From the NCBI GenBank assembly GCA_049521075.1, contig JBEKPD010000003.1:47766-111765 (forward strand): DNA of 64,000 nt, read 5' to 3'. The notes under the pieces are model-generated. The model searched no databases. It had not been told where the DNA came from and was given only the letters and a program-made list of their open reading frames with translations. Made by a program: the position numbers and the translations under genes. Source of the stretch: Terracidiphilus sp. (GTDB lineage: Bacteria; Acidobacteriota; Terriglobia; Terriglobales; Acidobacteriaceae). Positions 3,051-17,938 of the stretch are shown in pieces; position 1 is the stretch's first letter, and each line of letters begins with the position of its first letter.

Positions 3051-3340
3051 CTAAAGTAGATTTTCTAAAGGCGCGGAAAGGAGTACTGTGCGCCCTCCCG
3101 TTTGTTCCATTTGATACCCGCTTGTGAGCGATTGCTGAGACGGGAGATGGACCTGCGACGCGCTGGCCGGAGTTCGGCTGCGCCTGGTTTATTTTTGATC
3201 AATTGGGCTTCGTGAATTGCCTTCGGAATTTGCGTTGGCAGAATATCTGCTAGTCCGGATTGAAGGGAATAACACGTAAGCCCGGACATGTCGTCTGCAA
3301 TATGCCGCTTGACAATCCAGATAATCCTCTGCTTTCATCC

Positions 3341-3369
3341 TTGACAGTCCAAAAATTCCGTTCTAAAGT
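3341..3369 (+). promoter_or_regulatory. Sigma70 promoter for the GH30-GH55 operon
   Basis: TTGACA-N17-TAAAGT, with an operator 10 nt downstream. Confidence 0.7.
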
Positions 3370-3378
3370 ATCGCGTTA

Positions 3379-3390
3379 ACAATCGGTTGT
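3379..3390. promoter_or_regulatory. Putative LacI-family operator ACAATCGGTTGT just downstream of the predicted TSS
   Basis: Palindromic consensus match in a classical repressor position. Confidence 0.7.
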
Positions 3391-3458
3391 CTTGACCATA
3401 TTCGAGAAGCATCGACAGTACGAAGCGGCGTAACCATTCGCCGAAGCAAGAGGAAATT

Positions 3459-4868
3459 ATGACCTTGAAGCGCATTTTTCTTATCCTTTTTTCCGCTCTA
3501 ATTCTCTTTGCGACAGCCTCTCGAGCGCAAAACACACAAGATGCGCAGGTCTGGCTGACGACGGGCGACCGAAACGCGTTGCTCACTCACGAACCGGACG
3601 CTCTGCATTTTTCCGATGTGAAGAGCGACGCGCCGACAATTGAAGTGAACGACATGCAACAGTACCAACCGATCGAAGGGTTTGGGTTTGCGCTGACGGG
3701 CGGAAGCGCGCAGCTGCTGATGCAGATGACGCCGACGCGGCGAAGCGAGTTGCTGGGGCAGCTCTTCACGGCCAAGGGAGACGGGATCGGAGTGAGTTAT
3801 CTGAGGGTGAGCATCGGCTCCTCAGATATGAACGATCACGTGTACTCGTACGACGATATGCCGGCCGGCCAGACTGATGCGAAGCTCGAGAAATTCAGCC
3901 TTGCCCCGGATGGGGCGACGGTGATTCCGGTCTTGAAGGAGATCCTGGCCATCAATCCGCAGATTAGGATTCTGGGGTCGCCCTGGTCGGCGCCAGCGTG
4001 GATGAAAACCAACGGCGCGGTAAAGGGCGGGGAACTGAAACCGGAGTTCTACGAGGCGTACGCGCAGTACCTGACGAAGTATGTCGAGGGCATGAAGGCG
4101 GAGGGGATCAACGTCACTGCCATTACCGTAGAGAACGAGCCGCTAAACCCGAAGAATACGCCGAGCATGGTTGTGTTTGCGTCGGAAGAGGATGAACTGA
4201 TTGCAAAGCACCTGGGGCCGGCGTTTGAGAAAGCCGGAATCAAGACAGAGATCCAGCTGTACGATCACAATCCGGATGTGATTTCTTACCCGCTATCGAT
4301 CCTGGCAGACGCCGCGGCGAGCAAGTATGTGGCGGGAACGGCATTTCATCTGTATGGCGGCGACAGTTCTGCGCTGACGTGCGTGCACAACCAGTATCCG
4401 AACAAGAATCTTTATTTGACGGAGCAATCAGTGGGCGGCCGGCCGAGCGCGACATCGATTGATATCACCGAGCCGGTGAGCCGCGTCCTGATTGGCGCCA
4501 CGCGGAACTGGGCGCGCAATGTGTTGCTGTGGAATCTGGCGGCAGATCCGCATGCCGGGCCGCACACGAACGATGGCGGATGTCCGGTCTGCTACGGTGC
4601 GATCACCCTTGATGGCGATCAGGCGCGGTTCAACGTGGCCTACTATGCGCTGGCCCATTTCTCAAAGTTTGTGCCGCCGGGTTCGGTGCGGATCGGTTCG
4701 AATGAACTCGAGCAGCTTTCGACAGTGGCGTTTTTGACGCCGGACGGAAAGGTTGTTCTGGTCGCAGTGAACACGGGAAATTTTCCGAAGACTTTCCAGA
4801 TTGAATACCATGGGCAGAGCGTGACGGCGACGCTGCGCCCGGAGTCGGCTGCGACCTATGTGTGGTGA
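3459..4868 (+). CDS. GH30 glycoside hydrolase, resembling GH30_3 beta-1,6-glucanases; Sec signal peptide
   Basis: YQPIEGFG, YLRVSIGSSD, SPWSAPAWMK, acid/base NEPL, nucleophile LTE, C-terminal beta-sandwich; hydrophobic N-terminus ending in ASRA. Confidence 0.88.
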   Translation: MTLKRIFLILFSALILFATASRAQNTQDAQVWLTTGDRNALLTHEPDALHFSDVKSDAPTIEVNDMQQYQPIEGFGFALTGGSAQLLMQMTPTRRSELLGQLFTAKGDGIGVSYLRVSIGSSDMNDHVYSYDDMPAGQTDAKLEKFSLAPDGATVIPVLKEILAINPQIRILGSPWSAPAWMKTNGAVKGGELKPEFYEAYAQYLTKYVEGMKAEGINVTAITVENEPLNPKNTPSMVVFASEEDELIAKHLGPAFEKAGIKTEIQLYDHNPDVISYPLSILADAAASKYVAGTAFHLYGGDSSALTCVHNQYPNKNLYLTEQSVGGRPSATSIDITEPVSRVLIGATRNWARNVLLWNLAADPHAGPHTNDGGCPVCYGAITLDGDQARFNVAYYALAHFSKFVPPGSVRIGSNELEQLSTVAFLTPDGKVVLVAVNTGNFPKTFQIEYHGQSVTATLRPESAATYVW

Positions 4869-4886
4869 GATTGGGAGGCTGCGGCG

Positions 4887-6653
4887 ATGAATCGAAGGGA
4901 AGGAAGAGCCGGAATGCGCGCTGCGAAAATCAAGTTGGGTGTGGCCTTGCTGGCAGGAGTGTTTGCCGGCGAATTCGCGCGGGCTGGGGCGCAGGTGTCG
5001 AAGAAGCCGGACCTCGGGCCGAATGTGATGATCTTCGATCCCTCGATGCCGGCCGCGGAGATTCAGGCGCGGATTGACAAGGTCTACGCCGTCGAAGAGA
5101 AGAGCGAGTTCGGCACAGCGCGGTATGCGCTGCTGTTTTTGCCGGGCAAGTATCACGTGGATGTGCCGGTGGGATTCTACACACAGGTACTGGGGCTGGG
5201 TGCAACGCCGGATGCGGTGGAGATTGACGGTAATGTGCACTCGGACGCGAGCCTGCCACACAACAATGCGACGTGCGCTTTCTGGCGCGCGGCAGAAGGG
5301 TTTTCAGTGACGCCCGCAGGTGGAACGATGCAGTGGGCGGTGTCGCAGGCAGTTCCGTTCCGGCGGATGCACGTGCGCGGCAACCTGGTGCTGCATCAGA
5401 ATCACGGATGGGCAAGCGGTGGGTGGATGTCGGACTCGCTCGTGGACGGCAACGTGGATTCGGGATCGCAACAGCAGTGGATCTCGCGCAACAGCGAGTG
5501 GGGAAGCTGGACGGGATCGAACTGGAACATGGTGTTTGTGGGAGTGATTTCTCCGCCGGCGGGGGAGTGGCCGGCTCCGCCGTATACCAAGGTGGATCGC
5601 GCGCCGCTGGTGCGAGAGAAGCCCTTTCTTCAGGTAGACGGGAATGGGAGCTGGAGCGTGCGTGTCCCCGAGCTGCGAAGAGACAGCAGAGGAATCACGT
5701 GGCATGGCGGCGAGACGCCCGGCCGATCGGTTCCCTTGAGTCATTTTTATGTAGCGCGGCCGGGTGTGGACACGGCAGCAAGCATGAACGCGCAATTGGC
5801 CAAAGGTAAAGATCTGTTGTTGACGCCGGGGAACTATGAACTCGACGATACGATTCGTGTGACGCGGCCGAATACGGTCGTGATGGGCCTGGGATACGCA
5901 ACGCTGAAGCCGACGCATGGAACACCGGCAATGACGACGGCCGATGCGGACGGGATCGACATTGCGGGCGTGCTATTCGATGCGGGCGCGGAGAAGTCGC
6001 CCGTGCTGCTGCGGGTGGGGCCGAAGGGAAGCAAGGCGAGGCATCGATTGAATCCGATTTGCCTGCACGATGTGTTTTTCCGCGTGGGTGGAGCAGGCGT
6101 AGGGAGTGTGGAGGTTGATCTCGAGATTAACAGCTCCGACACAATTGTGGACCACACATGGATCTGGCGTGCAGACCACGGGGCCGGCGTGGGATGGGAC
6201 AAGAACCTGAGCGCGAATGGGATGGTTGTGAACGGCGCGGACGTGACAGCGTATGGATTATTTGTCGAGCATCACCAGCAGTACCAGGTACTGTGGAATG
6301 GGAACGGCGGCCGGACGTATTTCTATCAATCGGAGATTCCCTACGATCCGCCGGACCAGGCAAGCTATACGAGCGCGGCAGGCGTGGATGGATGGGCATC
6401 TTATAAAGTGGCTTACGGCGTGACTCGGCACGAGGCGTGGGGGCTGGGAATCTATAGCGTGTTCCGTCACCCGAATGTGGTGCTGACCAGGGCGATTGAG
6501 GTGCCGGTGACGCCGGGTGTGCGATTCCACCACATGATTACGGTGGCGCTGGACGACAAGGGCGCGATCGAGAACGTGATCGACGATGCGGGGGGACCCA
6601 CGTCGATCGCGCCTCGGGTAACGCCGAAGGTTTCGGAATTTCCACAACAGTGA
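4887..6653 (+). CDS. GH55 exo-beta-1,3-glucanase (bacterial laminarinase type), secreted
   Basis: GPNVMIFDPS, YALLFLPG, GFYTQVLGLG, FWRAAE, WAVSQAVPFRR, SQQQWISR, DHTWIWRADHG and QSEIPYD follow the Streptomyces GH55 (SacteLam55A-like) motif order. The start may be 4914. Confidence 0.85.
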   Translation: MNRREGRAGMRAAKIKLGVALLAGVFAGEFARAGAQVSKKPDLGPNVMIFDPSMPAAEIQARIDKVYAVEEKSEFGTARYALLFLPGKYHVDVPVGFYTQVLGLGATPDAVEIDGNVHSDASLPHNNATCAFWRAAEGFSVTPAGGTMQWAVSQAVPFRRMHVRGNLVLHQNHGWASGGWMSDSLVDGNVDSGSQQQWISRNSEWGSWTGSNWNMVFVGVISPPAGEWPAPPYTKVDRAPLVREKPFLQVDGNGSWSVRVPELRRDSRGITWHGGETPGRSVPLSHFYVARPGVDTAASMNAQLAKGKDLLLTPGNYELDDTIRVTRPNTVVMGLGYATLKPTHGTPAMTTADADGIDIAGVLFDAGAEKSPVLLRVGPKGSKARHRLNPICLHDVFFRVGGAGVGSVEVDLEINSSDTIVDHTWIWRADHGAGVGWDKNLSANGMVVNGADVTAYGLFVEHHQQYQVLWNGNGGRTYFYQSEIPYDPPDQASYTSAAGVDGWASYKVAYGVTRHEAWGLGIYSVFRHPNVVLTRAIEVPVTPGVRFHHMITVALDDKGAIENVIDDAGGPTSIAPRVTPKVSEFPQQ

Positions 6654-6674
6654 GCACTTCTGTACCGAGACGGA

Positions 6675-8111: not shown

Positions 8112-8151
8112 AAAGTTTCTCCGTACCCCTATGATCGCAGAAAATCGATTT

Positions 8152-8167
8152 AGACAAGCGATTGCCT
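8152..8167. promoter_or_regulatory. Putative LacI-family operator AGACAAGCGATTGCCT upstream of GH30-2
   Basis: Near-palindromic match to the island consensus. Confidence 0.55.
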
Positions 8168-8262
8168 CTAATGAGGCATACCGAACGGCGCTTGTATGGC
8201 ATGACGCACGACCCCATAGCCACACCCACTAGGATAAATCGTTTAATGGAAATCATACTGAC

Positions 8263-8274
8263 TCAAACGATTGT
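8263..8274. promoter_or_regulatory. Putative LacI-family operator TCAAACGATTGT in the divergent GH30-2/TBDT spacer
   Basis: One mismatch to ACAAnCGnTTGT, followed by CT like the other copies. Confidence 0.55.
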
Positions 8275-8292
8275 CTACAACACACAAATGAC

Positions 8293-8322
8293 TTGACAGT
8301 CCATCTTTTGGTGTGCTCTAAT
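8293..8322 (+). promoter_or_regulatory. Possible sigma70 promoter for the TBDT operon
   Basis: TTGACA-N18-TCTAAT with a TG extension. Shares CTTGACAGTCCA with the promoter at 3341. Confidence 0.45.
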
Positions 8323-8360
8323 CGCTCCCGCGCTCGGAAATGCTGGCATAAGCGCTTAAA

Positions 8361-8372
8361 ACAACCGATTGT
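8361..8372. promoter_or_regulatory. Putative LacI-family operator ACAACCGATTGT upstream of the TBDT
   Basis: Exact ACAAnCGnTTGT match. Confidence 0.68.
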
Positions 8373-8488
8373 CTTGTCAGTGATGCAATCTAAGCCAATG
8401 AATTCAGACGCGCCCGGTCCGGCACCGGAAAAGATTCGGAGCCGCCTATGCCGAGACGGCGGAATGTGAGAAGTTCAGGAGGCAATTC

Positions 8489-11400
8489 ATGAAGACTTTG
8501 TCGAGATGGATTTTACCCCTTCTTCTGTTGACCAGCTGGTTGCTGGTTGGTGGAAGCAGGGCGAGTTTCGGACAGGCCGTAAGCTCAGGCGACATCCGAG
8601 GGACTGTGACAGACACCACCGGAGCGTTGGTGGCTGGAGTTACGGTTACGGTTTTAGACGTGGACACCGGAGTTTCAAGGGATTTCGCTACCAACCAGGA
8701 CGGGTTGTATGACACCTCCGCGATTGTGGCGGGACACTACAAACTTACGTTCAAAAAAACGGGGTTTGAGACCTTTGTACGCGGCCCTCTCACTATCGAT
8801 GTGGGCCTTACAGCCGTGGACGCACAATTGAAAATTGGCGATGTCTCAGTCGCTGTAACAGTCACCACCGATGTTCCACTGTTGAACACCGTAAGCGGCG
8901 ACCAGACCTCGACTCTGGAAGCACAAACGATGGATCAGCTTCCTCAGGTGGGTACGGCTAACAACAGCGGCAACAGCTGGGAAAATTTCATCACTCTGCT
9001 ACCGGGCATCGCCGGCACCGCAGGCGGACAGCAAGGCGCTGCCAGCCCTGGTCAAGAGCCTTCTTCTAACGGCAATATGCCGTTTTCGAACGTGCTCAGC
9101 GACGGATCGTCCACCACGCTCGATCACAGCCAGAATGCCAACCCCGCGACCTTCGACGACTTGGCGGAAGTCCAGATCTCCCTTTCCTCGTTCTCCGCGC
9201 AGTACGGCGTGGGCGGATTGATCATCAATCAGGTGACTAAGGGTGGGACCGACAAGTTTCATGGCACCGCGTACGAGTACTTCATGAACAATGACTTGAA
9301 TGCGGCGCCCTTTGAATTTGGGAACACACTAACCCGTGCGCAGGCGGTTCCGTTCCTCCGCTACAACGACTATGGCTTCACCGTTGGTGGACCCATTGCC
9401 GTCGGCCCGTTCAAGAAGAAAGCCTTCTTCTTCTTCGGCTACGACCGAATCGACAACAACACCAATACCAGCGGTTTCCAGACACTTCCCACCGCGGGCG
9501 TCATGGCCGGCAACTTCAACAGCACCAACGGCGACAACATCGCTTACTACAACCTGTACGATCCGACTACCCAGACCATCGCTCACGATTCTTTGGGCAA
9601 TCCGTATCCGGTTAGGAAGACGTTCGCTAGCGAAAATCCCTCGCTGGGCAACGCGATTCCTGCCGCGCTGCAGGACTCCGTCTCCCAGAAATTCCAAGCG
9701 TTGTTTCCGACCGGCTCGAATGATGTCGGTGAGTATGTGAGCGGTACAGCGAAGGCAAACTTCCTCCAGAATAACTGGCACGATAGTTATGCGCAGCCCC
9801 GCCCGTGGCGGCGATATTTCGGGCGCATGGACTACGACATTAACCGTAATAACCGGCTGACGCTGGTCGATAACCAGGGCGACGAACTAGAGAACGGCGA
9901 TAACTCGGTTACCGCGTGCCCGATCGCCTGCCAGCTGGGCGATGTAGATAACAACACTGCCTCAATCACCGACGTGTGGAACATCGGCCAGCGCACCATC
10001 AACGAAGCCCGAATGGGATACACCGACCAATTGAACTTCTTCACGGACTCCACCACGGGTCAGGACTATCCGACGAAGCTCGGCTGGCAATTTGCCGAGT
10101 ACAATATTCTTCCCAACGTCACCATCAACAATTATTACAACCTCGGGCCGGCGACCAACGCCATCTATAAGGAGATGACGTTCGATCCTTCCGATGTGGT
10201 GACCATGATCCGTGGCAATCACGTCCTTCACTTCGGCGGCGAACTGGCATTTTATCGCGACGACTCTACGGCGTGGGGCAACCTCCACTCCGGGGAATTC
10301 ACCTATAGTGGCCAATACACCCAGCAATGGGCCCTTTCGAACGCCAATTGCCCGACGGGCACACCGGCTGCGGACACGTGCGCAGCTCCAAACACTGCCA
10401 CGGGTTCATCGTATGCCGACTTCCTGCTTGGCTATGCGCAAAAGTGGGACGCGCAGAACACTCCGGAGTTCGGCGCTCGTCTGAAGAAGCCGCAGATGTT
10501 CGTCCAGGACGATTGGAAGGCGCGCAGGAACCTCACAGTCAATCTTGGGCTGCGCTATGAAATCAGTCACGGCTACAGCGAAGTCAAGGGGAATGAAGCC
10601 AGCTTCGACCCGACGGTGACGAACACGGACGGCACGCTGGGAGCCATGTGGTATGGGGAGACACATGCCAACGGGCGCACAGCAATGGAGGCCAACGTCT
10701 TTTCCACCTTCATGCCGCGCCTGGGGTTCTCTTGGCAGGCAATACCCAAGACTACGGTTCGTGGTGGGTACGGGCTCTACTCCTATAACTTCAGCCTGGA
10801 TAACTATGCCTCCGGAATGGGCTCATCCGTCTCATCCTTTGGTAGCTACACCGATGTATCGAATGGCATCTATCCGGTGACCAAGTTTAACGGAACCGGC
10901 ACAATCTTCCCATTGGGTGGTGGACCCGCAGGGCCTTTGCCTTATACGGCGGCTTCTACCTCTCCGGGAAGGTTCAACGGCTCGAGCACGCCCGCCTACA
11001 GCGAATTTCACACTCCGGTTCCCAAGGCAGAGCAATGGAACTTTGGCGTGGAGCGGGAATTGAGCACGGACTATGTGGTTACCCTCTTCTATGTGGGAAG
11101 CCACGGGTTCAACCTCACCATGCCAACCGACCTGAACGCAGTTCCTGAAAGTAAGTTATCGTCCAACGATGCGGCAGCTCGTCCATACTCGAATTTCACA
11201 AACATCACGGGCAATCTTTACAACGCGGTCTCGAACTACCACTCATTGCAGGTTGCGGTCACCAAGCGCATGAGCCATGGCTTTAGTACGAGCTTCAATT
11301 ACACCTGGTCGCACATGCTGGACGACATGGACTCCTCCGGTTGGGGAAGCCACGCCGGGTTCCAGGGTTGGCAGCATGCCACCAGTCTCACGCAGAATCT

Positions 11401-12031
11401 GACATCGCTCAACTACGGACCTTCCAACTTCGATCAACGCCAGGCTCTGAAAGGGTACGTGGTCTATCAACTGCCCTTCGGCAAGGGCAAGGCGTTCATG
11501 AACAACAACGCCATTACGGACGCGGTGTTGGGCGGCTGGCAATTTGCAGGCACGATGCTCGAACTGGCTGGCAATCCCTTCCAGCCGACCGTCCCAAACG
11601 GCGGCCAACTCCTCTACAACCTGGCGGGCAATTCAACGCAATATCCCAACCGGGTATCTGGCGTCAGCCTTACACCTCAGGGAGGCAAGAGCTGGCAGCA
11701 CTGGTTCAATGAAGGGGCCTTCTCGCAAGCCGCTGTCGGAGCTTTCGGCGACGCTCAGAGAAATCCGGTGGTCGGGCCTGGAATCAACAACTTCACTCTT
11801 TCTGGAGGGAAGGAACTCTCGATTTGGGAGCAGGTCAAATTCTCGCTTCGCTGCGACGCGACCAACGTGTTCAATCATCCCAGCTTCAGCGCCGTCCCTG
11901 GCGGAAGTGGCAACGGCAATTTCGGTCTCACCGGGGGCTCCGCAGGCGCGCCGTTTACGGGTACTAGCCAACTAAGCAATACTTCGGTGGGCGGGCGCGC
12001 GGTGGAACTGAGCGGGCGCATCAGCTTCTAA
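8489..12031 (+). CDS. TonB-dependent receptor (Oar-like) with N-terminal carboxypeptidase-regulatory-like domain
   Basis: Signal peptide; GDIRGTVTDTTGALVAGVTV prealbumin-like domain; plug motif NQVTKGGT; LNLGLRYE barrel strand; C-terminal Phe (GRISF). Confidence 0.9.
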   Translation: MKTLSRWILPLLLLTSWLLVGGSRASFGQAVSSGDIRGTVTDTTGALVAGVTVTVLDVDTGVSRDFATNQDGLYDTSAIVAGHYKLTFKKTGFETFVRGPLTIDVGLTAVDAQLKIGDVSVAVTVTTDVPLLNTVSGDQTSTLEAQTMDQLPQVGTANNSGNSWENFITLLPGIAGTAGGQQGAASPGQEPSSNGNMPFSNVLSDGSSTTLDHSQNANPATFDDLAEVQISLSSFSAQYGVGGLIINQVTKGGTDKFHGTAYEYFMNNDLNAAPFEFGNTLTRAQAVPFLRYNDYGFTVGGPIAVGPFKKKAFFFFGYDRIDNNTNTSGFQTLPTAGVMAGNFNSTNGDNIAYYNLYDPTTQTIAHDSLGNPYPVRKTFASENPSLGNAIPAALQDSVSQKFQALFPTGSNDVGEYVSGTAKANFLQNNWHDSYAQPRPWRRYFGRMDYDINRNNRLTLVDNQGDELENGDNSVTACPIACQLGDVDNNTASITDVWNIGQRTINEARMGYTDQLNFFTDSTTGQDYPTKLGWQFAEYNILPNVTINNYYNLGPATNAIYKEMTFDPSDVVTMIRGNHVLHFGGELAFYRDDSTAWGNLHSGEFTYSGQYTQQWALSNANCPTGTPAADTCAAPNTATGSSYADFLLGYAQKWDAQNTPEFGARLKKPQMFVQDDWKARRNLTVNLGLRYEISHGYSEVKGNEASFDPTVTNTDGTLGAMWYGETHANGRTAMEANVFSTFMPRLGFSWQAIPKTTVRGGYGLYSYNFSLDNYASGMGSSVSSFGSYTDVSNGIYPVTKFNGTGTIFPLGGGPAGPLPYTAASTSPGRFNGSSTPAYSEFHTPVPKAEQWNFGVERELSTDYVVTLFYVGSHGFNLTMPTDLNAVPESKLSSNDAAARPYSNFTNITGNLYNAVSNYHSLQVAVTKRMSHGFSTSFNYTWSHMLDDMDSSGWGSHAGFQGWQHATSLTQNLTSLNYGPSNFDQRQALKGYVVYQLPFGKGKAFMNNNAITDAVLGGWQFAGTMLELAGNPFQPTVPNGGQLLYNLAGNSTQYPNRVSGVSLTPQGGKSWQHWFNEGAFSQAAVGAFGDAQRNPVVGPGINNFTLSGGKELSIWEQVKFSLRCDATNVFNHPSFSAVPGGSGNGNFGLTGGSAGAPFTGTSQLSNTSVGGRAVELSGRISF

Positions 12032-12053
12032 CTTCAACCAACACTCACCTAAT

Positions 12054-12083
12054 CGAGAGACGGCGATTCGTCGCCGTCTCTCG
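12054..12083 (+). terminator. 13-bp perfect hairpin with UUCG loop between TBDT and TPR genes
   Basis: CGAGAGACGGCGA-TTCG-TCGCCGTCTCTCG followed by GTGTTT. Confidence 0.7.
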
Positions 12084-12131
12084 GTGTTTAACAAGAAGCA
12101 TCGCGTTGTTGCAACTCCTATAATGAGGGTT

Positions 12132-13343
12132 ATGAATCTGCAGATCAGAGGAGTTATTGGATATCTCATGCTATTGATCGCCGGGATATGCAAGGCGCAG
12201 ACGGGAACCTACCCTCAGGCAGAGTTTTCCAGACATATCCAGCAAGCGCAGAGATACCTGGCGGAAAAGCGGCCTGATCTCGCGATTCCTGAACTGCAGA
12301 CGGCGGTAACCATCGATCCAGACAGCGTTGAAACGCAAAGCAATCTCGGTGTGCTGTTGTTTTTTCAAGGCAAGGCGGCCGAGGCGATCCCGCATTTGCG
12401 CATCGCAGTTGAGAAACAGCCGGCCCTCAGCAAAATCCAGGGGATTTTAGGGATTGCGGAACTACACGCGCAGGATTTCGCAGAGGGGCGGAAGGATCTG
12501 GAGACAGCCTTCCCCACGATTGACGATCAGAAATTCAAATTGCAGGTGGGCCTGGAACTCGTGGGAGTCTATACGGACAGCGGCGATCTTGAGCAGGCGG
12601 CCGGCATCCTCGCGCAGTTGAAAAAGGTCGCACCCGACAATCCGGAAGTGCTTTATGCTTCTTACCGGACCTTCACGGATCTCTCGAGCGAGGCCATGAT
12701 TGCGCTCTCGCTTGCGGCTCCCGATTCAGCGCAGATGCATCAATTACTCGCGCACCAGGAAATCAAAGAGGGGAATACGAATGTCGCGATCGCCCAGTAC
12801 CGGAAGGCGATTGCAATCGATCCGCGTTTGCCGGGTGTGCACTTCGAACTGGCGGAGTTGTTGCGCACATCGCACGATCCCGCAGTGAAAGAGCAGGCGG
12901 AGCAGGAGTATCGCGCCGCGCTTCAGGAAAACCCGCAGGACGAAAAAGCGATTTTCGCAATGGCGGAGATTGCCGAGACCAAGGGTGACACGCAGCAAGC
13001 ATACAACGACTATTCGCAGGCAGTGGCGCTCGATCCCGGCGATGCGAATGCGAAGTTGGGTTTGGCCAAGGTGCTTATTGGGATGGATAAGCAGGACAAG
13101 GCACTGCCGCTGCTTGAGGCCTCGGCGCAACTCGAGCCGACGAACGCGACCGTACACTACAGGTTGGCCATGCTCTATAGAAAGATGGGTCGCGTGGACG
13201 ACGCCAAGCGCGAAGTTGAGCTTTACCAGAAGTTCAAGGACATGAAGGAAAAGCTTCGCGCCGTATATAGCGGACTTCTCATCCAGCCGGATGAAATCCG
13301 CGCGGACGAGAATCCGGAAGAGGAACCATCTGAAAAGAAATGA
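12132..13343 (+). CDS. Exported tetratricopeptide-repeat protein
   Basis: Signal-like N-terminus. Multiple TPR units (AIAQYRKAIAIDP, AYNDYSQAVALDP, VHYRLAMLYRKMG). Start uncertain (12084/12123/12132). Confidence 0.85.
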   Translation: MNLQIRGVIGYLMLLIAGICKAQTGTYPQAEFSRHIQQAQRYLAEKRPDLAIPELQTAVTIDPDSVETQSNLGVLLFFQGKAAEAIPHLRIAVEKQPALSKIQGILGIAELHAQDFAEGRKDLETAFPTIDDQKFKLQVGLELVGVYTDSGDLEQAAGILAQLKKVAPDNPEVLYASYRTFTDLSSEAMIALSLAAPDSAQMHQLLAHQEIKEGNTNVAIAQYRKAIAIDPRLPGVHFELAELLRTSHDPAVKEQAEQEYRAALQENPQDEKAIFAMAEIAETKGDTQQAYNDYSQAVALDPGDANAKLGLAKVLIGMDKQDKALPLLEASAQLEPTNATVHYRLAMLYRKMGRVDDAKREVELYQKFKDMKEKLRAVYSGLLIQPDEIRADENPEEEPSEKK

Positions 13344-13356
13344 AGCAGACCGATCG

Positions 13357-15156
13357 ATGAGATTGCGGATCGTGATTCTGAAACTCTCTGCTGCGCTTTC
13401 ATTTCTCGCGTTTGAACAGATGATTGGCGCGCAAATGGGAACGCCAACACCCCTGTCCCCCGCAGAGCGCCAAAGGGCTGAGGCGGAAAAAGCCGCTACC
13501 GGGCCTGTCCCGAATTACCCGCAGCTCGTCGATATTACAAAATTAACCGGAATCACCTTCGACCATAAGTCGAGCCCGGAAGCCAGGTTCATTGCGGAAT
13601 CTATGAGCGGAGGAGTCGCGCTGATCGATTACGATGGCGACGGATGGCCAGATATCTATTTCACCAATGCGCAAAGCGTCAATATGGCGCTGCACGGTGT
13701 TAAGTCGCGCGGCGTTCTCTTACGCAACAATCACGATGGCACATTTACCGACGTGACCGACAAGGCGGGTGTCGGTTATCCTTGCTGGGCGATGGGGGCC
13801 GTCGCCGGTGACTACAATAACGACGGCCTGCCCGATCTTTTGGTTACTTGTCTCAACGGCGTGGTGCTCTATCGTAACAATGGCGACGGCACGTTTACCG
13901 ATGTGACTAAAGCAAGCGGGCTCGATGCCGACACCGGTTGGGCTACAGGTGCGGCGTTCGGAGACTATGACAATGACGGCCGCGCCGACTTGTTTGTGTC
14001 GCATTACGTAGATTTTCGTTTGGACAACCTGCCGGTCTTCGGGTCGGGCAAAGGGTGTAAGTACCTCGGACTGGACGTTCAGTGCGGTCCGCGCGGATTA
14101 AAAGGGCTGCCGGACAATCTCTATCACAACAACGGCGATGGGACCTTCATAGACATTTCAAAGCAGGCTGGCGTGGATGATGCCGAGCGCCGCTTCGGAC
14201 TGACTTCAATTTGGTCGTACTTCGGTGACGACGGGAAACTCGATCTCTTCGTAACTAACGACGGTGAGGCGAATTATCTGTACCAGAGTGACGACTCCCG
14301 TAAGTTTGAAGACGTTGCGCTGTTGGCAGGTGTCGCGGCCAATGAGGACGGAGTGGAGCAGGCGAACATGGGCGTGGCGTACGGCGATTACCTGCACTCC
14401 GGTCGCATATCGCTGGCTATCTCGCATTTCGATGTGGAGTACACAGCGCTCTACAGTAATGAAGGCGGCATGAATTTTACCGATAACTCCATCGCCTCAG
14501 GCATCGCGCGCGGGACGCAAGGTTATGTTGGCTGGGGCGATGCCTTTGTGGATTTCGCCAACAGCGGCTGGCAGGATTTCTTTCAGGTCAACGGTCACGT
14601 GTATCCGCAAGTCGATACGGCGCACACGGCGACGCGCTATCTGGAGCCGAAACTTCTGTTTCTAAATCGCGGCGACGGCACGTTCCAGGACATCAGCCGA
14701 CGCGTAGGGCCGGCGCTCCAGATTCCCCAGGTGAGCCGCGGCCTCGCCGTGGGCGACTTATTCAATGACGGCCGCGTGGAAGCGGTGGTGGAGAATCTTG
14801 TAGGCGAGCCGATGATCCTCCGACCTGAGGGGGGCCCGAAGAATCATTGGGTCAGCTTTCAGCTCCAGGGAGTCACCTGCAATCGACTTGCGCTGAACGC
14901 TCGAGTTCGCGTGGCTGCGGGAGATCTGGTGCAACTTGGCGAGGTCATAAGCGGAGGAAGCTATCTTTCGCAGAGCGATTTGCGTCTCCATTTTGGGTTG
15001 GGCAGTCATGAGCTTCTCGATCAGGTCAAGGTGTTATGGCCGGATGGAAAGAAAGAAATTCTGACTCACTTGGCTGCCGACCGGTTTTATGTGCTGCGCG
15101 AGGGCCAGGGAGTGATTTCAAGCAAGCCGGCCGAGCATTCCACGAATCTTCCATAG
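13357..15156 (+). CDS. CRTAC1-family protein (FG-GAP/VCBS repeats + ASPIC/UnbV domain), exported
   Basis: Repeated DYDGDGWPD / DYNNDGLPD / NNGDGTFTDVT Ca-binding repeats. C-terminal SGGSYLSQSDLRLHFGLG...WPDG is typical of ASPIC/UnbV. Confidence 0.88.
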   Translation: MRLRIVILKLSAALSFLAFEQMIGAQMGTPTPLSPAERQRAEAEKAATGPVPNYPQLVDITKLTGITFDHKSSPEARFIAESMSGGVALIDYDGDGWPDIYFTNAQSVNMALHGVKSRGVLLRNNHDGTFTDVTDKAGVGYPCWAMGAVAGDYNNDGLPDLLVTCLNGVVLYRNNGDGTFTDVTKASGLDADTGWATGAAFGDYDNDGRADLFVSHYVDFRLDNLPVFGSGKGCKYLGLDVQCGPRGLKGLPDNLYHNNGDGTFIDISKQAGVDDAERRFGLTSIWSYFGDDGKLDLFVTNDGEANYLYQSDDSRKFEDVALLAGVAANEDGVEQANMGVAYGDYLHSGRISLAISHFDVEYTALYSNEGGMNFTDNSIASGIARGTQGYVGWGDAFVDFANSGWQDFFQVNGHVYPQVDTAHTATRYLEPKLLFLNRGDGTFQDISRRVGPALQIPQVSRGLAVGDLFNDGRVEAVVENLVGEPMILRPEGGPKNHWVSFQLQGVTCNRLALNARVRVAAGDLVQLGEVISGGSYLSQSDLRLHFGLGSHELLDQVKVLWPDGKKEILTHLAADRFYVLREGQGVISSKPAEHSTNLP

Positions 15157-15226
15157 AACTCGAGCGGCCCTGTCGATTCGCGACGAAGGATTGCATTGAA
15201 GTGGCGAACGAACGAGTTGAAAAATC

Positions 15227-16411
15227 ATGATCGACGAAACCACAACGGCAACCGTCGTTCCCACGCAGAGAACGTCATCGACGATCGCCTTGAGCGCCGG
15301 ATTCGCATTGACGGGCGCAGGCACTGTAATGATGGGCGTGCTGTTGCCGGTGCTTTCATTACGCTGGGGATTGCGCGACGATCAGGCTGGGCTGCTCCTT
15401 TTTCTGCAATTCGTGGCATGCGCACTGGGCGCCATTGTCACTGGGCGAAATCGCGTTTACACAATGACGATCGGCTACGGGCTGCTGGCGGCCACACTCG
15501 GCCTGCTCGCGATTGATGGCAGCCGGGCAGCATACGCCGCATTTTTCCTTTATGGATTGGGATTGGGTATGGCCATGACCTCGACCAGCCTGCTCTTCGC
15601 GAATCGCTGGGGCGATGCCAGCGCTGCTAAATTGGAGTGGCTGAACTTTGTCTGGTCGGCCGGGGCCACCGCGGGTCCGGTATGCTTTTTGCCGCTGCTG
15701 AGGCGCGGCGATCTTCGATCGCTGTTCGTGACCATGGCCGCGTTGTCGTTCGCGATGCTGGTGTGGGTGGTGTCGCAGGAGGGCAATGAAAGGGAGCGCC
15801 ACGACCCGCATTTCGACGCCGCGGGGCAACCCGGCGCAATTCGCGGATCCCTCAGAGGTCTGATCGCAATACTCCTTTTGCTGACCATGATCACGGTTGG
15901 CATGGAGGCTGCTTTGAGCGGCTGGCTTACGACCTATTCGCAGCGCGTAGGGATGCACAGTCTGGCCGGGGCAGCCTTGGCGACATCCATGTTCTGGTTG
16001 GGAGAGATGGCAAGCCGGCTAGTTTTTTCCACGCGCCTTTTGGCAAAAGTCGGCCGCGGGGCAGCATTGCAGGCGTGCTCCTGGGGCGTAGCGGCCATGG
16101 CAATTCTGATCGTAGCGGCTCCAAGACCGTCACTGATCCTCGTTGCTGCCGCCGCCGCAGGTGCGTTCGTCGGTCCGCTTTACCCGTTGCAGCTTTCCTT
16201 CCTGCTTGAGCTTTCTCCTTGGGGCTGGTTTTTCGCGGTTGGAGGCATTGGAGCTGCCTTCGTCCCCTGGGTCACGGGGCTAATCTCAGCAAACTTTCAT
16301 TCGCTCCGGCTTGGAATGACGGTTCCATGTCTCGCGGGATTTGCGATGATTGCACTCAACGTGCTGGTTATCCGACGCATCACTCCGGAAAACAGTTCCG
16401 CCATCCAATAA
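15227..16411 (+). CDS. MFS transporter (fucose/glucose permease-like)
   Basis: About 12 hydrophobic segments. Resembles FucP/TsgA-like permeases. Located in a sugar locus. Confidence 0.8.
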   Translation: MIDETTTATVVPTQRTSSTIALSAGFALTGAGTVMMGVLLPVLSLRWGLRDDQAGLLLFLQFVACALGAIVTGRNRVYTMTIGYGLLAATLGLLAIDGSRAAYAAFFLYGLGLGMAMTSTSLLFANRWGDASAAKLEWLNFVWSAGATAGPVCFLPLLRRGDLRSLFVTMAALSFAMLVWVVSQEGNERERHDPHFDAAGQPGAIRGSLRGLIAILLLLTMITVGMEAALSGWLTTYSQRVGMHSLAGAALATSMFWLGEMASRLVFSTRLLAKVGRGAALQACSWGVAAMAILIVAAPRPSLILVAAAAAGAFVGPLYPLQLSFLLELSPWGWFFAVGGIGAAFVPWVTGLISANFHSLRLGMTVPCLAGFAMIALNVLVIRRITPENSSAIQ

Positions 16412-16425
16412 ACATTGTCGCGATG

Positions 16426-16441
16426 AGACAATCGTATGTCT
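16426..16441. promoter_or_regulatory. Putative LacI-family operator AGACAATCGTATGTCT upstream of the regulator
   Basis: 16-bp near-perfect palindrome. Confidence 0.6.
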
Positions 16442-16633
16442 ATATAGATACTATGACTTCTAGCCGTAACAGTCCGGCCCCGCAGCACCATGAGCTCCGT
16501 CTTCTTCGGTACTACGCGCTTAGTAAATGCCAAATATTCAACAATAAATCCCCAAATTGGCTTGACATTGACAATGCCTCAAGCGTCTAATGAAGCACAA
16601 AAAGAAAATGCCTGATTCCTGCTTTACATTGAG

Positions 16634-16645
16634 TTAATCGATTGT
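16634..16645. promoter_or_regulatory. Putative LacI-family operator TTAATCGATTGT (autoregulatory)
   Basis: Right half is identical to consensus (CGATTGTCT). Lies just downstream of a TTTACA -35-like hexamer. Confidence 0.55.
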
Positions 16646-16879
16646 CTTATGAGCATGGACGGGCGCGTCGAACTAGTCTGGATGCTAACTTGGACCGGTC
16701 AGTCGTCGAAAAGGGTCGCGCCTGGGCCGCTTGGCAGGCGCTGCCGAGGTTTGATTTCGCTCCGCTACGTCATTTTGATCTGCGTGATCTGCGGTCGATC
16801 AGCTTTACGCGCAGGGCGATCGACTTCCCGCTGTAGAATCAACCGTGAACCCCGCTGCTAAAAGGTTTGAGCAGACAGG

Positions 16880-17938
16880 ATGAAGGATTCCACGAGCGAC
16901 AAGAAGGCCAAAACATACGTGAAGCCGCGGATCCACCAGCCCGCGAGCCTGAAGCAGCTTGCCGAACATCTCGGGCTGAATCCGGCAACGGTTTCAGTGG
17001 TTTTGAACGACGTGCCGGGACGATCCATTCCGCAGGCCACCCGCGACCGCATCAAGGCTGCCGCCAAAGCCATGAACTACCAGCCGAATCTGCTGGCGCG
17101 CTCCCTGCGCAACCGCCGGACATTGACCATCGGCATCCTGGTGCCGGAACTCGGCGATGGCTATCACACGCAGGTGATGAGCGGTATCGGCGATCAGTTG
17201 ATTCAGGCGGGATATTTTTACTTTACAGCGCATCACCGACACAAGCCGAATCTGGTGGAAGAGTACACGCGGATGCTGATTGGGCGCGGTGCTCAAGGGC
17301 TGATTGCAATCGACACGCAGCTCGAGCACCCGGTTTCGATTCCGATGGTCGCGGTGGCGGGCCACCGCCATATCGAGGGCGTAACTAATGTGTTGCTCGA
17401 TCATGCGCGTGCTGCCGTGCTTGCCCTCGAGCATCTCTACGCACTGGGACACCGTAAAATCGCATTCATGCGCGGGCAACCTTTTAGTTCAGACTCAGAT
17501 GAGCGATGGAAGAGCCTCATGGCAGTCGCCGAGCGGCTCGGCATTGAAATCAAACCAGAACTCGTGGTGAGCCTCGATCGCGATATGAGTTCACCGGAAC
17601 TGGGTTACCCGGTAGCACAGCAGTTGCTCGCGACAAAGCTGCCGTTTACCGCGATTGTAGCCTTCAACGATATTTCGGCAATCGGTACAATTCGCGCGTT
17701 GAAGGATTCCAATTTGCGCGTTCCGGAAGACATATCGGTAATAGGCTTCGACGATATCAAGGCGGCGGCATTCACTCTGCCTCGTTTGACGACGATCAAT
17801 CAGCCGCTCGAGGAGATGGGCAGAGTAGCGACACAAAGCCTTCTGAATCGCATCCATAATACAGTGCCGCCGCGCGACGAAATCATGGTTGAGCCGGAGC
17901 TGATCATTCGCGAATCGACAGGCCCAGTAAAGGGATGA
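16880..17938 (+). CDS. LacI-family transcriptional regulator
   Basis: HTH SLKQLAEHLGLNPATVSVVLN, hinge YQPNLLARSL, sugar-binding domain AFNDISAIG, DISVIGFDD, LTTINQP. Confidence 0.95.
   Translation: MKDSTSDKKAKTYVKPRIHQPASLKQLAEHLGLNPATVSVVLNDVPGRSIPQATRDRIKAAAKAMNYQPNLLARSLRNRRTLTIGILVPELGDGYHTQVMSGIGDQLIQAGYFYFTAHHRHKPNLVEEYTRMLIGRGAQGLIAIDTQLEHPVSIPMVAVAGHRHIEGVTNVLLDHARAAVLALEHLYALGHRKIAFMRGQPFSSDSDERWKSLMAVAERLGIEIKPELVVSLDRDMSSPELGYPVAQQLLATKLPFTAIVAFNDISAIGTIRALKDSNLRVPEDISVIGFDDIKAAAFTLPRLTTINQPLEEMGRVATQSLLNRIHNTVPPRDEIMVEPELIIRESTGPVKG

What the first reader, a model, noticed from the sequence alone, without database searches (positions are those of the whole stretch)
3459..17938. 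A non-Bacteroidota PUL apparently targeting mixed beta-1,3/beta-1,6-glucan (fungal cell wall or laminarin)
Seen: GH30 (Sec), GH55 (Sec), GH30 (Tat), TBDT, TPR, CRTAC1/ASPIC, MFS and LacI, all flanked by one operator motif. Known: bacterial GH55 enzymes are exo-beta-1,3-glucanases, and GH30_3 enzymes are beta-1,6-glucanases used against yeast/fungal glucan. Inference: a complete sense-import-degrade system for fungal or algal beta-glucan with no SusD homologue, which could enable mycophagy or necromass use.
Basis: partly seen in the sequence, partly recalled or inferred. Interest (0 to 1): 0.68.

Follow-up and report, generated by a model that had tools for sequence, protein, structure and literature searches.

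The report
Acidobacterial beta-glucan uptake and breakdown locus
A peat-soil acidobacterium carries a conserved eight-gene cluster, under one repressor, that most likely imports and digests fungal or lichen beta-1,6/beta-1,3-glucan; it is a new example of a known type of locus and its substrate is still untested.

Summary
Window 3459-17938 encodes GH30 (Sec), GH55 (Sec), GH30 (Tat, divergent), an outer-membrane transporter, a TPR protein, a CRTAC1/ASPIC beta-propeller, an MFS permease and a LacI regulator. A 16-bp palindrome (AGACAATCGATTGTCT) occurs 7 times, only in this locus (0.18 expected).

The organism is an Acidobacteriaceae bacterium near Terracidiphilus, from peat. The same architecture and operator positions recur in several distinct MAGs.

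- **GH55:** about 55% identical to the exo-beta-1,3-glucanase SacteLam55A, with all 11 catalytic and subsite -1 residues kept.
- **GH30a:** resembles the endo-beta-1,6-glucanase BT3312 (GH30_3), including its Cys-x-x-Cys loop.
- **GH30b:** nearest to BT3312 but lacks its specific features, so its subfamily is unresolved.
- Neither GH30 falls with xylanases or galactanases.

The beta-glucan reading is therefore well supported in silico but unproven. "Complete" overstates it: there is no endo-beta-1,3-glucanase and no GH1/GH3, and the MFS specificity is unknown.

The transporter has a TonB-dependent-transporter fold but is not SusC-family. The TPR protein is not SusD-like. The logic matches proteobacterial CUT loci, so this is a new member of a known kind.

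Unexplained extras are a conserved TPR-ASPIC pair and tRNA-Phe-derived direct repeats bracketing the locus.

The parts
2800..2908 (.). Distal copy of a direct repeat: an 83-nt spacer plus about 20 nt of the tRNA-Phe 3' end. It marks the left boundary of the locus.
   Evidence: 88-94% identical to the units at 18234-18467. There are 3 copies in the window and none are expected by chance.
3037..3052 (.). Operator-like palindrome ACACAAACGATTGTCT, the upstream auxiliary site of the GH30a-GH55 unit.
3341..3369 (+). Sigma-70-like promoter of GH30a-GH55: TTGACA, 17-nt spacer, TAAAGT.
   Evidence: Best promoter match in the region, 10 of 12 positions. The number of promoter-like hits in the region as a whole is not above chance.
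3377..3392 (.). Operator TAACAATCGGTTGTCT, 7 nt downstream of the -10 hexamer, over the predicted transcription start.
   Evidence: A site at the same position occurs upstream of GH30a in 15 related loci.
3459..4868 (+). GH30a: Sec-signal GH30, BT3312-like, predicted endo-beta-1,6-glucanase.
   Evidence: Pfam PF02055 and PF17189. PDB 5NGK at 1.6e-84. NCBIfam NF053856 at 387 bits. Residue check; tree.
4887..6653 (+). GH55, predicted exo-beta-1,3-glucanase. The likely start is at 4911, followed by a Sec signal.
   Evidence: PDB 4PEW at 6.4e-168 with full-length alignment. All 11 key residues are conserved, using the residue list from PMC10637969.
6675..8111 (-). GH30b: Tat-signal GH30 of a distinct, conserved clade. 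The retaining beta-glycosidase machinery is intact.
8152..8167 (.). Operator AGACAAGCGATTGCCT, 41-56 nt upstream of the GH30b ATG.
8261..8276 (.). Operator ACTCAAACGATTGTCT. It sits in the spacer of a candidate GH30b promoter (-35 at 8280-8275, -10 at 8257-8252, minus strand) and 17 nt upstream of the transporter promoter's -35.
   Evidence: The promoter assignment is an inference from the sequence.
8293..8322 (+). Candidate promoter of the transporter operon: TTGACA, 18-nt spacer, TCTAAT. It shares the CTTGACAGTCCA element with the GH30a promoter.
   Evidence: Read from the sequence. Inference only.
8359..8374 (.). Operator AAACAACCGATTGTCT, about +30 to +45 relative to the transporter promoter.
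   Evidence: Paired sites about 100 bp apart are conserved in L002, L006, L008 and L024.
8489..12031 (+). Outer-membrane TonB-dependent-transporter-fold protein: N-terminal CarboxypepD_reg domain plus a large barrel, 1180 aa.
   Evidence: Pfam PF13620 and PF25183. All top-50 Foldseek hits are TonB-dependent transporters. Fragments appear in metatranscriptomes.
12132..13343 (+). Secreted or periplasmic TPR protein, about 10 TPR units, with no lipobox.
   Evidence: Pfam. Model pLDDT 88. Plain TPR superhelix fold. The top 120 listed homologue clusters (clustered at 90% identity) are 64-88% identical to it.
13357..15156 (+). CRTAC1-family FG-GAP/UnbV_ASPIC beta-propeller protein with a signal peptide.
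   Evidence: Pfam. PDB 9ETN at 8e-17. It follows the TPR gene in every related locus examined.
15227..16411 (+). MFS permease of unknown specificity.
   Evidence: PF07690 at 4e-14. No NCBIfam or PDB relative. Conserved in the locus.
16426..16441 (.). Operator AGACAATCGTATGTCT, 15 nt after the MFS stop codon.
   Evidence: The same position is occupied in L083.
16562..16591 (+). Candidate lacI promoter: TTGACA, 18-nt spacer, TCTAAT.
   Evidence: Read from the sequence. Inference only.
16632..16647 (.). Operator AGTTAATCGATTGTCT upstream of lacI, implying autoregulation.
   Evidence: The same position is occupied in L083.
16880..17938 (+). LacI-family repressor.
   Evidence: PF00356 plus Peripla_BP_1/3. 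NCBIfam hits are all below equivalog cut-offs.
18234..18467 (.). Two tandem 116-nt units, each an 83-nt spacer plus 33 nt of the tRNA-Phe 3' end. They mark the right boundary.
18435..18509 (-). tRNA-Phe (GAA).

Best explanation
This is a LacI-repressed carbohydrate-utilisation locus of an Acidobacteriaceae bacterium near Terracidiphilus, from peat. It most likely serves growth on beta-1,6-linked and beta-1,3-linked glucan, that is fungal or lichen cell-wall glucan and necromass, and less probably algal laminarin.

Proposed mechanism. Only steps 1 and 5 have direct sequence support. The order of events and all locations are inferred.
1. GH30a, a BT3312-like endo-beta-1,6-glucanase, and GH55, an exo-beta-1,3-glucanase, are exported by Sec. 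GH30b is exported folded by Tat.
2. Enzymes that reach the outside cut the polymer into gentio- and laminari-oligosaccharides, gentiobiose and glucose.
3. The large TonB-dependent-type outer-membrane transporter takes up oligosaccharides. GH55 and/or GH30b finish them in the periplasm.
4. The MFS permease carries a small product, a disaccharide or glucose, into the cytoplasm.
5. That product or a derivative releases the LacI repressor from 16-bp palindromes. These lie over or beside the promoters of four units: GH30a-GH55; GH30b; transporter-TPR-ASPIC-MFS; and lacI itself.

The TPR and CRTAC1/ASPIC proteins are conserved partners of this transporter. Their role is unknown. My guess is a periplasmic or envelope scaffold plus a binding propeller.
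For: - Gene content and signal sequences.
- GH55: 6.4e-168 to SacteLam55A over its full length. T149, F152, Q174, S198, W444, W446, D449, E480, H481, E502 and Y505 are all conserved (with the residue list from PMC10637969).
- GH30a: best PDB hit is BT3312 at 1.6e-84, against 2e-48 for SrfJ and 4e-42 for glucocerebrosidase. It is the top NCBIfam hit to the endo-1,6-beta-glucanase model at 387 bits. D131, W179, N237, E238, N244, H281, N282, D286, E339, W377, C393 and C396 are conserved.
- GH30b: catalytic and subsite -1 residues are invariant in 112 homologues. In a small tree it sits nearer BT3312 than the GH30_1 references.
- Operator: 7 sites against 0.18 expected, all in the locus. In 1.5 Mb of related loci, 27 of 28 sites lie in loci that carry the GH30a-GH55 pair, at the same relative positions. 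Positions are also kept in L083, where the TPR protein is 67% identical.
- The same eight-gene architecture occurs in L083 and L089, and nearly the same in L002, L007, L024 and L004.
- Variant loci L087 and L088 keep GH30b, transporter, TPR, ASPIC and MFS, and add further GH30s (one with CBM6/35) plus GH3 or GH5. This points to beta-1,6-glucan as the core target.
- The transporter model's top 50 PDB fold hits are all TonB-dependent transporters.
- Transporter mRNA fragments at 95-100% identity occur in peat and soil metatranscriptomes.
Against: - There is no biochemical, induction or genetic evidence.
- GH30a scores below the NCBIfam equivalog cut-off (387 against 700 bits) and has Arg in place of the -2 subsite Trp345.
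- GH30b lacks Asn244, Trp345 and the Cys393-Cys396 disulfide. Instead it has its own conserved loop, NEVDTDQDG(R/K)MPA-LW. Its specificity could differ.
- The locus has no endo-beta-1,3-glucanase and no GH1/GH3.
- The MFS has no characterised relative.
- The transporter's plug is undetectable by sequence and modelled at pLDDT below 50.
- No lipobox or other surface-anchoring signal is present, so whether any enzyme acts outside the cell is unknown.
- No metatranscriptome contig was seen on GH30a or GH55.
Confidence: 0.62

Rival explanations
1. The locus is regulated and built the same way, but its real substrate is a bacterial or plant beta-glucan rather than fungal or algal glucan. Candidates are cyclic beta-1,3/1,6-glucans, curdlan-like exopolysaccharide or plant callose.
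For: GH55 and GH30 specificities concern linkages, not sources. The habitat is peat, which is rich in plant and bacterial polymers. Most Acidobacteriaceae keep an orphan GH55 next to rpsA, which suggests a general housekeeping use of beta-1,3-glucan.
Against: Long beta-1,6-glucan, the substrate of BT3312-type enzymes, is known mainly from fungi, lichens and oomycetes (background knowledge). Variant loci carry up to three GH30s with CBM6/35, which fits a polymeric beta-1,6-glucan.
Confidence: 0.15
2. The two GH30 enzymes are not beta-1,6-glucanases. They are exo-beta-glucosidases, glucosylceramidases or beta-xylosidases of the GH30_1/2 type, and the locus handles small beta-glycosides or glycolipids, with GH55 a side activity.
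For: Sources name the GH30b homologues 'glucosylceramidase'. GH30b scores almost as well against SrfJ (185 bits) as against BT3312 (211 bits) and lacks the BT3312-specific features. GH30a has W345 replaced by Arg at subsite -2.
Against: GH30a clearly prefers BT3312 (287 against 168 and 147 bits) and keeps N244 and the CxxC loop. A large TonB-dependent transporter and an exo-beta-1,3-glucanase are hard to explain for glycolipids. The 'glucosylceramidase' names are automatic orthology labels.
Confidence: 0.12
3. The transporter, TPR and ASPIC genes form an independent envelope module that merely sits beside the glycosidases. They import or handle something other than the glucan products.
For: TPR-ASPIC pairs occur without a transporter or CAZymes nearby (L085). 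The TPR protein is a plain protein-interaction superhelix. The transporter is only 42-45% identical between loci whose ASPIC proteins are 80% identical.
Against: Operators flank the transporter promoter and the divergent GH30b gene, and this arrangement is conserved. GH30b, transporter, TPR, ASPIC and MFS stay together even where the other enzymes are exchanged.
Confidence: 0.1

Closest known systems
CUT loci of Xanthomonas, Caulobacter and other Proteobacteria (for example the sux sucrose locus: LacI-type SuxR, TonB-dependent SuxA, MFS SuxC, glycosidase SuxB). Named from my own knowledge of Blanvillain et al. 2007; the paper was not read here.
   Same: The four-part logic is the same: a LacI-family repressor, a TonB-dependent outer-membrane transporter, an MFS inner-membrane permease and secreted or periplasmic glycoside hydrolases. 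There is no SusD.
   Different: The phylum differs. The transporter belongs to another family: CarboxypepD_reg plus OMP_b-brl_4, 1180 aa, with no sequence match to any solved transporter. The enzymes are GH30, GH55 and GH30. The locus carries an extra conserved TPR plus CRTAC1/ASPIC pair.
Bacteroides thetaiotaomicron PUL for 1,6-beta-glucan (BT3309-BT3314; PMC5481569)
   Same: The key enzyme is a GH30 related to BT3312. The predicted substrate, fungal beta-1,6-glucan, is the same. Uptake is through a large outer-membrane transporter that carries an N-terminal carboxypeptidase-regulatory-like domain.
   Different: There is no SusC-family match, no SusD, no surface glycan-binding lipoprotein, no lipobox on the GH30, and no GH3. 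The regulator is LacI rather than SusR-type. The locus has two GH30s plus a GH55.
SacteLam55A, the GH55 exo-beta-1,3-glucanase of Streptomyces sp. SirexAA-E (PDB 4PEW/4TZ1)
   Same: Full-length alignment at 6e-168, with all 11 catalytic, proton-relay, subsite -1 and aromatic-block residues identical.
   Different: Tyr194 is His. The three residues that fill the space for a -2 subsite in SacteLam55A (the Trp/Phe pair and Gln150) are Leu, Pro and Cys here. This could leave room for a beta-1,6 branch, but that is inference only. In this organism the gene is embedded in a regulated transporter locus.
Laminarin PULs of marine Flavobacteriia (GH16/GH17/GH30/GH3 with SusC/D and an MFS). Named from my own knowledge.
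   Same: A GH30 is combined with beta-1,3-active enzymes and an MFS permease for a beta-1,3/1,6-glucan.
   Different: They use endo-acting GH16/GH17 and SusC/D. Here the only beta-1,3 enzyme is an exo-type GH55, and the habitat is peat.

Membership tests
Bacteroidota-type PUL (SusC/SusD) | SusC/RagA-family TonB-dependent transporter | tested here: not met
   No NCBIfam hit of any kind, including the SusC/RagA model, even at E<=1. No sequence hit to any solved structure, with either the single sequence or a 53-sequence profile. The fold search returns classical TonB-dependent transporters, with no SusC in the top 50. It does share an N-terminal CarboxypepD_reg-type domain and a large size with SusC.
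Bacteroidota-type PUL (SusC/SusD) | Adjacent SusD-like lipoprotein | tested here: not met
   No SusD Pfam family appears in any of the eight proteins, and there is no room for another gene. The TPR protein next to the transporter has no lipobox. Its confident model (pLDDT 88) matches plain TPR superhelices such as OGT and APC/C subunits, not SusD.
CUT locus (transporter + inner-membrane transporter + CAZyme + regulator) | TonB-dependent outer-membrane transporter | tested here: inconclusive
   Fold: all top-50 PDB matches are TonB-dependent transporters, E 1e-14 to 1e-17, target TM-score 0.43-0.65. Some homologues hit PF00593, and NCBI names them TonB-dependent receptor. However, no Plug domain is found at E<=1, and residues 118-254 are modelled at pLDDT below 50. 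A candidate TonB box, VAVTVTTD, is only read from the sequence.
CUT locus (transporter + inner-membrane transporter + CAZyme + regulator) | Linked inner-membrane transporter, glycoside hydrolases and a regulator, co-regulated | tested here: met
   MFS_1, GH30 x2, GH55 and LacI are present. A shared palindromic operator lies at every promoter region: 7 sites against 0.18 expected. The sites are conserved in position in related loci. Co-regulation itself is inferred, not measured.
CUT locus (transporter + inner-membrane transporter + CAZyme + regulator) | Substrate-induced expression and transporter-dependent uptake | not testable with these tools
   Only fragments of the transporter transcript were seen in environmental metatranscriptomes.
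GH55 exo-beta-1,3-glucanase | [quoted passage not shown] | tested here: met
   All 11 residues are identical in the alignment to 4PEW. The residue list comes from PMC10637969.
GH55 exo-beta-1,3-glucanase | Exo-type hydrolysis of beta-1,3-glucan | not testable with these tools
   Fungal endo-acting GH55s share the same residues, so the mode of action needs an assay.
GH30 subfamily 3 (beta-1,6-glucanase), for GH30a | Catalytic Glu238/Glu339 and subsite -1 residues, plus BT3312-specific Asn244 and the loop with the Cys393-Cys396 disulfide | tested here: met
   D131, W179, N237, E238, N244, H281, N282, D286, E339, W377, C393 and C396 are conserved; only W345 is Arg. GH30a groups with BT3312 in a small tree.
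GH30 subfamily 3 (beta-1,6-glucanase), for GH30a | Score above a curated family threshold (NCBIfam equivalog NF053856, or the dbCAN subfamily HMM) | tested here: not met
   387 bits against a 700-bit cut-off. dbCAN is not available here. GH30a is therefore a homologue, 35% identical to BT3312, not an equivalog.
GH30 subfamily 3 (beta-1,6-glucanase), for GH30b | The same features as for GH30a | tested here: inconclusive
   The catalytic pair and D131, W179, N237, H281, N282 and W377 are kept and invariant in 112 homologues. Asn244 is Arg/Lys within a 2-residue longer loop, W345 is Leu, C393 is Pro (so no disulfide), and D286 is Trp. BT3312 is still the best PDB hit (211 bits, against 185 for SrfJ), and the GH30b clade is sister to the BT3312 group.
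LacI/GalR repressor | N-terminal HTH plus periplasmic-binding-protein-like effector domain, and a palindromic operator with a central CG | tested here: met
   PF00356, PF00532 and PF13377 are present. The 16-bp palindrome AGACAATC|GATTGTCT is enriched and conserved. DNA binding and the effector were not tested.
tRNA-integrated genomic island | Direct repeats that include the tRNA 3' end at both boundaries | tested here: met
   The copy at 2800-2908 against those at 18234-18467, next to tRNA-Phe.
tRNA-integrated genomic island | Integrase or other mobility genes, and presence/absence polymorphism | tested here: not met
   Only the eight locus genes lie between the repeats. Four metagenomes show even depth of about 10x and no empty-site junction. 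GC3 is lower than in housekeeping genes but equals that of the GH53 gene outside the repeats. None of the other tested window genes (GH53, the GH15-like gene, the deaminase-like gene) is found beside the locus in the first 80 related loci, and 13 of the 14 loci scanned have no tRNA gene (L075 has a tRNA-Ser, not tRNA-Phe).

The most novel reading that the evidence does not exclude
The transporter, TPR protein and CRTAC1/ASPIC propeller form a conserved acidobacterial outer-membrane glycan capture and import module. It would do the job of SusC/SusD by different means, with the FG-GAP beta-propeller as the glycan-binding partner and the TPR protein as its scaffold. The whole locus would be a cassette that moved into a tRNA-Phe site.
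Probability: 0.15. Interest if true: 0.75.

Novelty: new member of a known kind. Interest (0 to 1): 0.45.

Why it matters
Acidobacteria are among the most abundant bacteria in acidic soils and peat, yet none of their polysaccharide-uptake systems appeared as characterised in the papers I could search. Those searches found no description of this locus.

This locus is a compact, conserved and apparently self-regulated candidate for turnover of fungal or lichen beta-glucan in peat. That bears on how fungal necromass carbon is recycled.

It offers ready experimental handles: three enzymes, one repressor with a defined operator, and one transporter. It also offers a first functional context for two very common but unexplained acidobacterial gene types:
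- the CarboxypepD_reg/OMP_b-brl_4 outer-membrane proteins;
- the TPR plus CRTAC1/ASPIC pairs.

If the substrate prediction fails, the locus is simply one more uncharacterised CAZyme cluster.

Tried and rejected
1. **TPR protein as a SusD analogue.** SusD is built from TPR-like helices, so I modelled the TPR protein (pLDDT 88). Its PDB neighbours are generic TPR superhelices and it has no lipobox. Rejected.
2. **Transporter as a SusC-family member.** There was no NCBIfam, Pfam Plug or PDB sequence match, even with a 53-sequence profile. Only the fold search places it among TonB-dependent transporters.
3. **GH53 galactanase upstream as a sign of a galactan or arabinogalactan locus with GH30_5.** GH53 lies outside the flanking repeat and has no operator at its promoter. 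Both GH30s belong to the glucocerebrosidase/BT3312 group, not the xylanase group, and no galactanase entry appears among their PDB hits.
4. **Locus as an active mobile island.** There is no integrase and no empty-site junction in four metagenomes.
5. **Small ORFs or RNAs in the long leaders (2909-3458 and 16412-16879).** No convincing ORF and no Rfam hit.
6. **Exact-match lookup of the GH55 protein.** Not on record.
7. **GH30b homologue search for distant relatives in other contexts.** The top 120 were all at least 60% identical and carried generic names, so it did not help with the subfamily.
8. **Literature.** Seven searches found no description of this locus or of an association between transporters and TPR-ASPIC pairs.
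9. **Expression.** Metatranscriptome contigs touched the transporter and GH53 genes only. That is too sparse to say anything about induction.

Full report
**What is there**

The stretch holds eight genes in four apparent transcription units:
- GH30a (3459-4868, +) and GH55 (4887-6653, +; likely start 4911);
- GH30b (6675-8111, -), transcribed divergently;
- an outer-membrane barrel protein (8489-12031), a TPR protein (12132-13343), a CRTAC1-family FG-GAP/UnbV_ASPIC propeller (13357-15156) and an MFS permease (15227-16411), all on the + strand;
- a LacI-family regulator (16880-17938, +).

GH30a, GH55, the barrel protein, the TPR protein and the ASPIC protein begin with Sec-type signal peptides, and none has a lipobox. 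The listed GH30b ORF is over-extended. The ATG at 8111 has a GGAG ribosome-binding site and opens MCPASRRAFLG. This twin-arginine motif appears in at least 72 of 120 homologues as called.

The rest of the window is ordinary chromosome: LepA, BamA, an RND efflux pump, PEP carboxylase and a second barrel protein.

**Is it more than chance**

The palindrome AGACAATCGATTGTCT, allowing 3 mismatches, occurs 7 times. All sites lie in the locus's intergenic regions. The expectation is 0.18 and no shuffle exceeded 1. At 4 mismatches the only further site in the window is one at 35901, outside the locus.

Where the sites sit:
- 3377 lies just downstream of the best sigma-70-like promoter in the region (3341-3369).
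- 8261 lies in the spacer of a candidate GH30b promoter and just upstream of a candidate promoter for the barrel-protein operon.
- 8359 lies downstream of that promoter, and 8152 lies in the GH30b leader.
- 16426 follows the MFS stop codon, and 16632 precedes lacI.
- 3037 lies 340 bp upstream of 3377.

The promoter assignments other than 3341 are my reading of the sequence.

**Who carries it and how conserved it is**

The best relatives of the GH55 gene are Terracidiphilus and Acidobacteriaceae MAGs, up to 86% identical. The DNA itself is found in many peat, wetland and soil metagenomes. It has even depth of about 10x and perfect identity across the whole locus in four of them.

Among the first 80 GH55 loci fetched, about 60 carry an orphan GH55 with none of the other locus genes nearby; the two I annotated sit beside rpsA and glpD. 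About 20 have GH30a immediately upstream. A subset has the full set:
- L002, L007 and L024;
- L004, which lacks GH30b;
- L001, L006 and L008, which are cut by contig ends.

Two further genomes, L083 and L089, show exactly the window's eight-gene architecture. The TPR protein of L083 is 67% identical to the window's, and the GH30b of L089 is 63% identical.

In 1.5 Mb of related loci, 27 of 28 operator matches fall in loci with the GH30a-GH55 pair. One lies upstream of GH30a, and two lie about 100 bp apart between GH30b and the barrel gene. L083 also keeps the two sites after the MFS gene and before lacI. This is good footprinting evidence for a dedicated regulon.

Variant loci L087 and L088 keep GH30b, the barrel gene, TPR (twice), ASPIC and MFS. 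They replace GH30a-GH55 with a 799-aa GH30 carrying CBM6/35, another GH30, and GH3 or GH5. The constant core is therefore GH30b plus the transport genes, and the system is GH30-centred.

**The enzymes**

*GH55.* It aligns end to end with the exo-beta-1,3-glucanase SacteLam55A at 6e-168. I used the residue list in PMC10637969 and an index offset that I verified on four landmarks. All of T149, F152, Q174, S198, W444, W446, D449, E480, H481, E502 and Y505 are identical.

Tyr194 is His. The residues that fill the would-be -2 space in SacteLam55A are Leu, Pro and Cys here. This may leave room for a branch, but that is inference.

*GH30a.* It prefers BT3312, the GH30_3 reference, over SrfJ and human glucocerebrosidase: 287 against 168 and 147 bits. 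It is the best match to NCBI's endo-1,6-beta-glucanase model, though at 387 bits it is below the 700-bit equivalog cut-off. It keeps 12 of 13 residues highlighted for BT3312 in PMC5481569, including Asn244 and the Cys393-Cys396 loop. Trp345 is Arg.

*GH30b.* It keeps the catalytic pair and the -1 subsite, invariant in 112 homologues. It has its own conserved loop, lacks Asn244, Trp345 and the disulfide, and scores 211 bits against BT3312 and 185 against SrfJ.

*Placement.* I built a small neighbour-joining tree from sequences copied out of the tool alignments. It puts GH30a and other acidobacterial paralogues with BT3312, the GH30b clade as sister to that group, and SrfJ and glucocerebrosidase outside. 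Both enzymes are far from the xylanase-type GH30 structures, at E 1e-9 to 1e-28.

**The transport and accessory genes**

*Barrel protein.* It has CarboxypepD_reg plus PF25183. It has no Plug hit at E<=1, no NCBIfam hit and no sequence hit to any solved structure, even with a profile. Its model is mediocre, with pLDDT 65 overall and below 50 in the plug region. Even so, all 50 best PDB fold matches are TonB-dependent transporters.

I therefore accept a TonB-dependent-transporter fold. I reject SusC-family membership as untested or failed.

*TPR protein.* It models confidently as a plain superhelix resembling OGT and APC/C TPR domains, not SusD. Its top 120 listed homologue clusters are 64-88% identical to it.

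*TPR-ASPIC pair.* The ASPIC gene follows the TPR gene in every related locus I examined. The pair also occurs away from transporters and CAZymes (L085). Its role is unknown.

*MFS.* It has no characterised relative.

**How it most likely works**

See the best explanation. What is shown is the gene content, the conserved catalytic machinery, and the enrichment and conservation of the operator. Everything else is inferred: the substrate, the order of steps, where each enzyme acts, the inducer, and what the TPR and ASPIC proteins do.

The locus lacks an endo-beta-1,3-glucanase and a GH1/GH3 beta-glucosidase, so "complete" is too strong.

**Comparison with known systems**

Functionally this is the CUT-locus design known from Xanthomonas and Caulobacter: LacI repressor, TonB-dependent transporter, MFS and hydrolases (named from my own knowledge). 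Here it is applied to the substrate of the Bacteroides 1,6-beta-glucan PUL (PMC5481569). It fails both defining tests of a Bacteroidota PUL, namely a SusC-family transporter and SusD.

Seven literature searches found no description of this locus or of the transporter-TPR-ASPIC association.

**Verdict**

The finding is real, conserved and sensibly interpreted, but it is a new member of a known kind rather than a new kind of system. Interest is moderate at 0.45. It is ecologically relevant and experimentally tractable, with two unexplained features worth a follow-up.

Noticed in passing
window 2800-2908 and 18234-18509: A 116-nt unit (83-nt spacer plus 33 nt of the tRNA-Phe 3' end) is repeated twice in tandem next to tRNA-Phe. 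A third copy, 88-94% identical, lies 15.4 kb away, so the copies bracket the whole locus like att sites. There is no integrase between them. The unit is absent from all fetched loci, and four metagenomes show no empty-site junction.
   Followed up: partly
window 1183-2289 (-) and 31-1098 (+): Upstream of the locus lie a Tat-signal GH53 endo-beta-1,4-galactanase (true start about M98, motif SRRQVLKG) and the C-terminal part of a GH15-like trehalase/glucoamylase. Neither has the operator, and both sit outside the flanking repeat.
   Followed up: partly
L009, L076 and about 60 other loci: Most Acidobacteriaceae GH55 orthologues (70-80% identical) have none of the other locus genes within 10 kb. 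In the two loci I annotated (L009, L076) the GH55 gene sits next to ribosomal protein S1 and glpD. The glucanase therefore exists both as a syntenic singleton and inside the regulated locus.
   Followed up: partly
L087 and L088: These variant loci keep GH30b, the transporter, TPR (x2), ASPIC and MFS. They swap GH30a-GH55 for a 799-aa GH30 with CHB_HEX_C/Fn3_assoc and CBM6/35 modules, another GH30, and GH3 or GH5.
   Followed up: no
L081 and L082, about 6100-7700: A large serine recombinase gene (Resolvase/Recombinase/Zn_ribbon_recom) lies about 2.3 kb upstream of TPR-ASPIC-LacI, in the stretch where the transporter gene would be expected. This suggests mobile-element-driven rearrangement of this locus type.
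   Followed up: no
L085 10001-16470: Two TPR-ASPIC pairs sit beside a phospholipase C and a two-component system, without CAZymes. The pair is a general and very abundant acidobacterial module of unknown function.
   Followed up: no
window 8152-8374; L002, L006, L008, L024: Operators in the GH30b/transporter intergenic region are spaced 98-109 bp apart and flank the candidate transporter promoter at about -60 and +37. This recalls the two-operator looping arrangement of the E. coli gal operon. Spacing elsewhere is 206 and 340 bp.
   Followed up: no
window 13724-14267: Depth doubles in all four metagenomes (about 20x against 10x), with many short cross-mapping contigs over the FG-GAP repeats of the ASPIC gene. 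This presumably comes from numerous paralogues in the community.
   Followed up: no
window 18431-18511: Contigs from two metagenomes and two metatranscriptomes show a 'goes back 81' junction with a 31-nt insert at tRNA-Phe, and depth there is above 200x. The likely cause is other organisms' tRNA-Phe genes, or a tandem tRNA arrangement in related strains.
   Followed up: no
window 18518-20341 (+): This adenosine-deaminase-family ORF has a long N-terminal extension and an internal signal-like segment. Its listed start is probably too far upstream.
   Followed up: no
window 60435-63806 (+): A second CarboxypepD_reg/OMP_b-brl_4 outer-membrane protein lies at the window's end. Its downstream genes are cut off, so it is unknown whether a TPR-ASPIC pair follows.
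   Followed up: no
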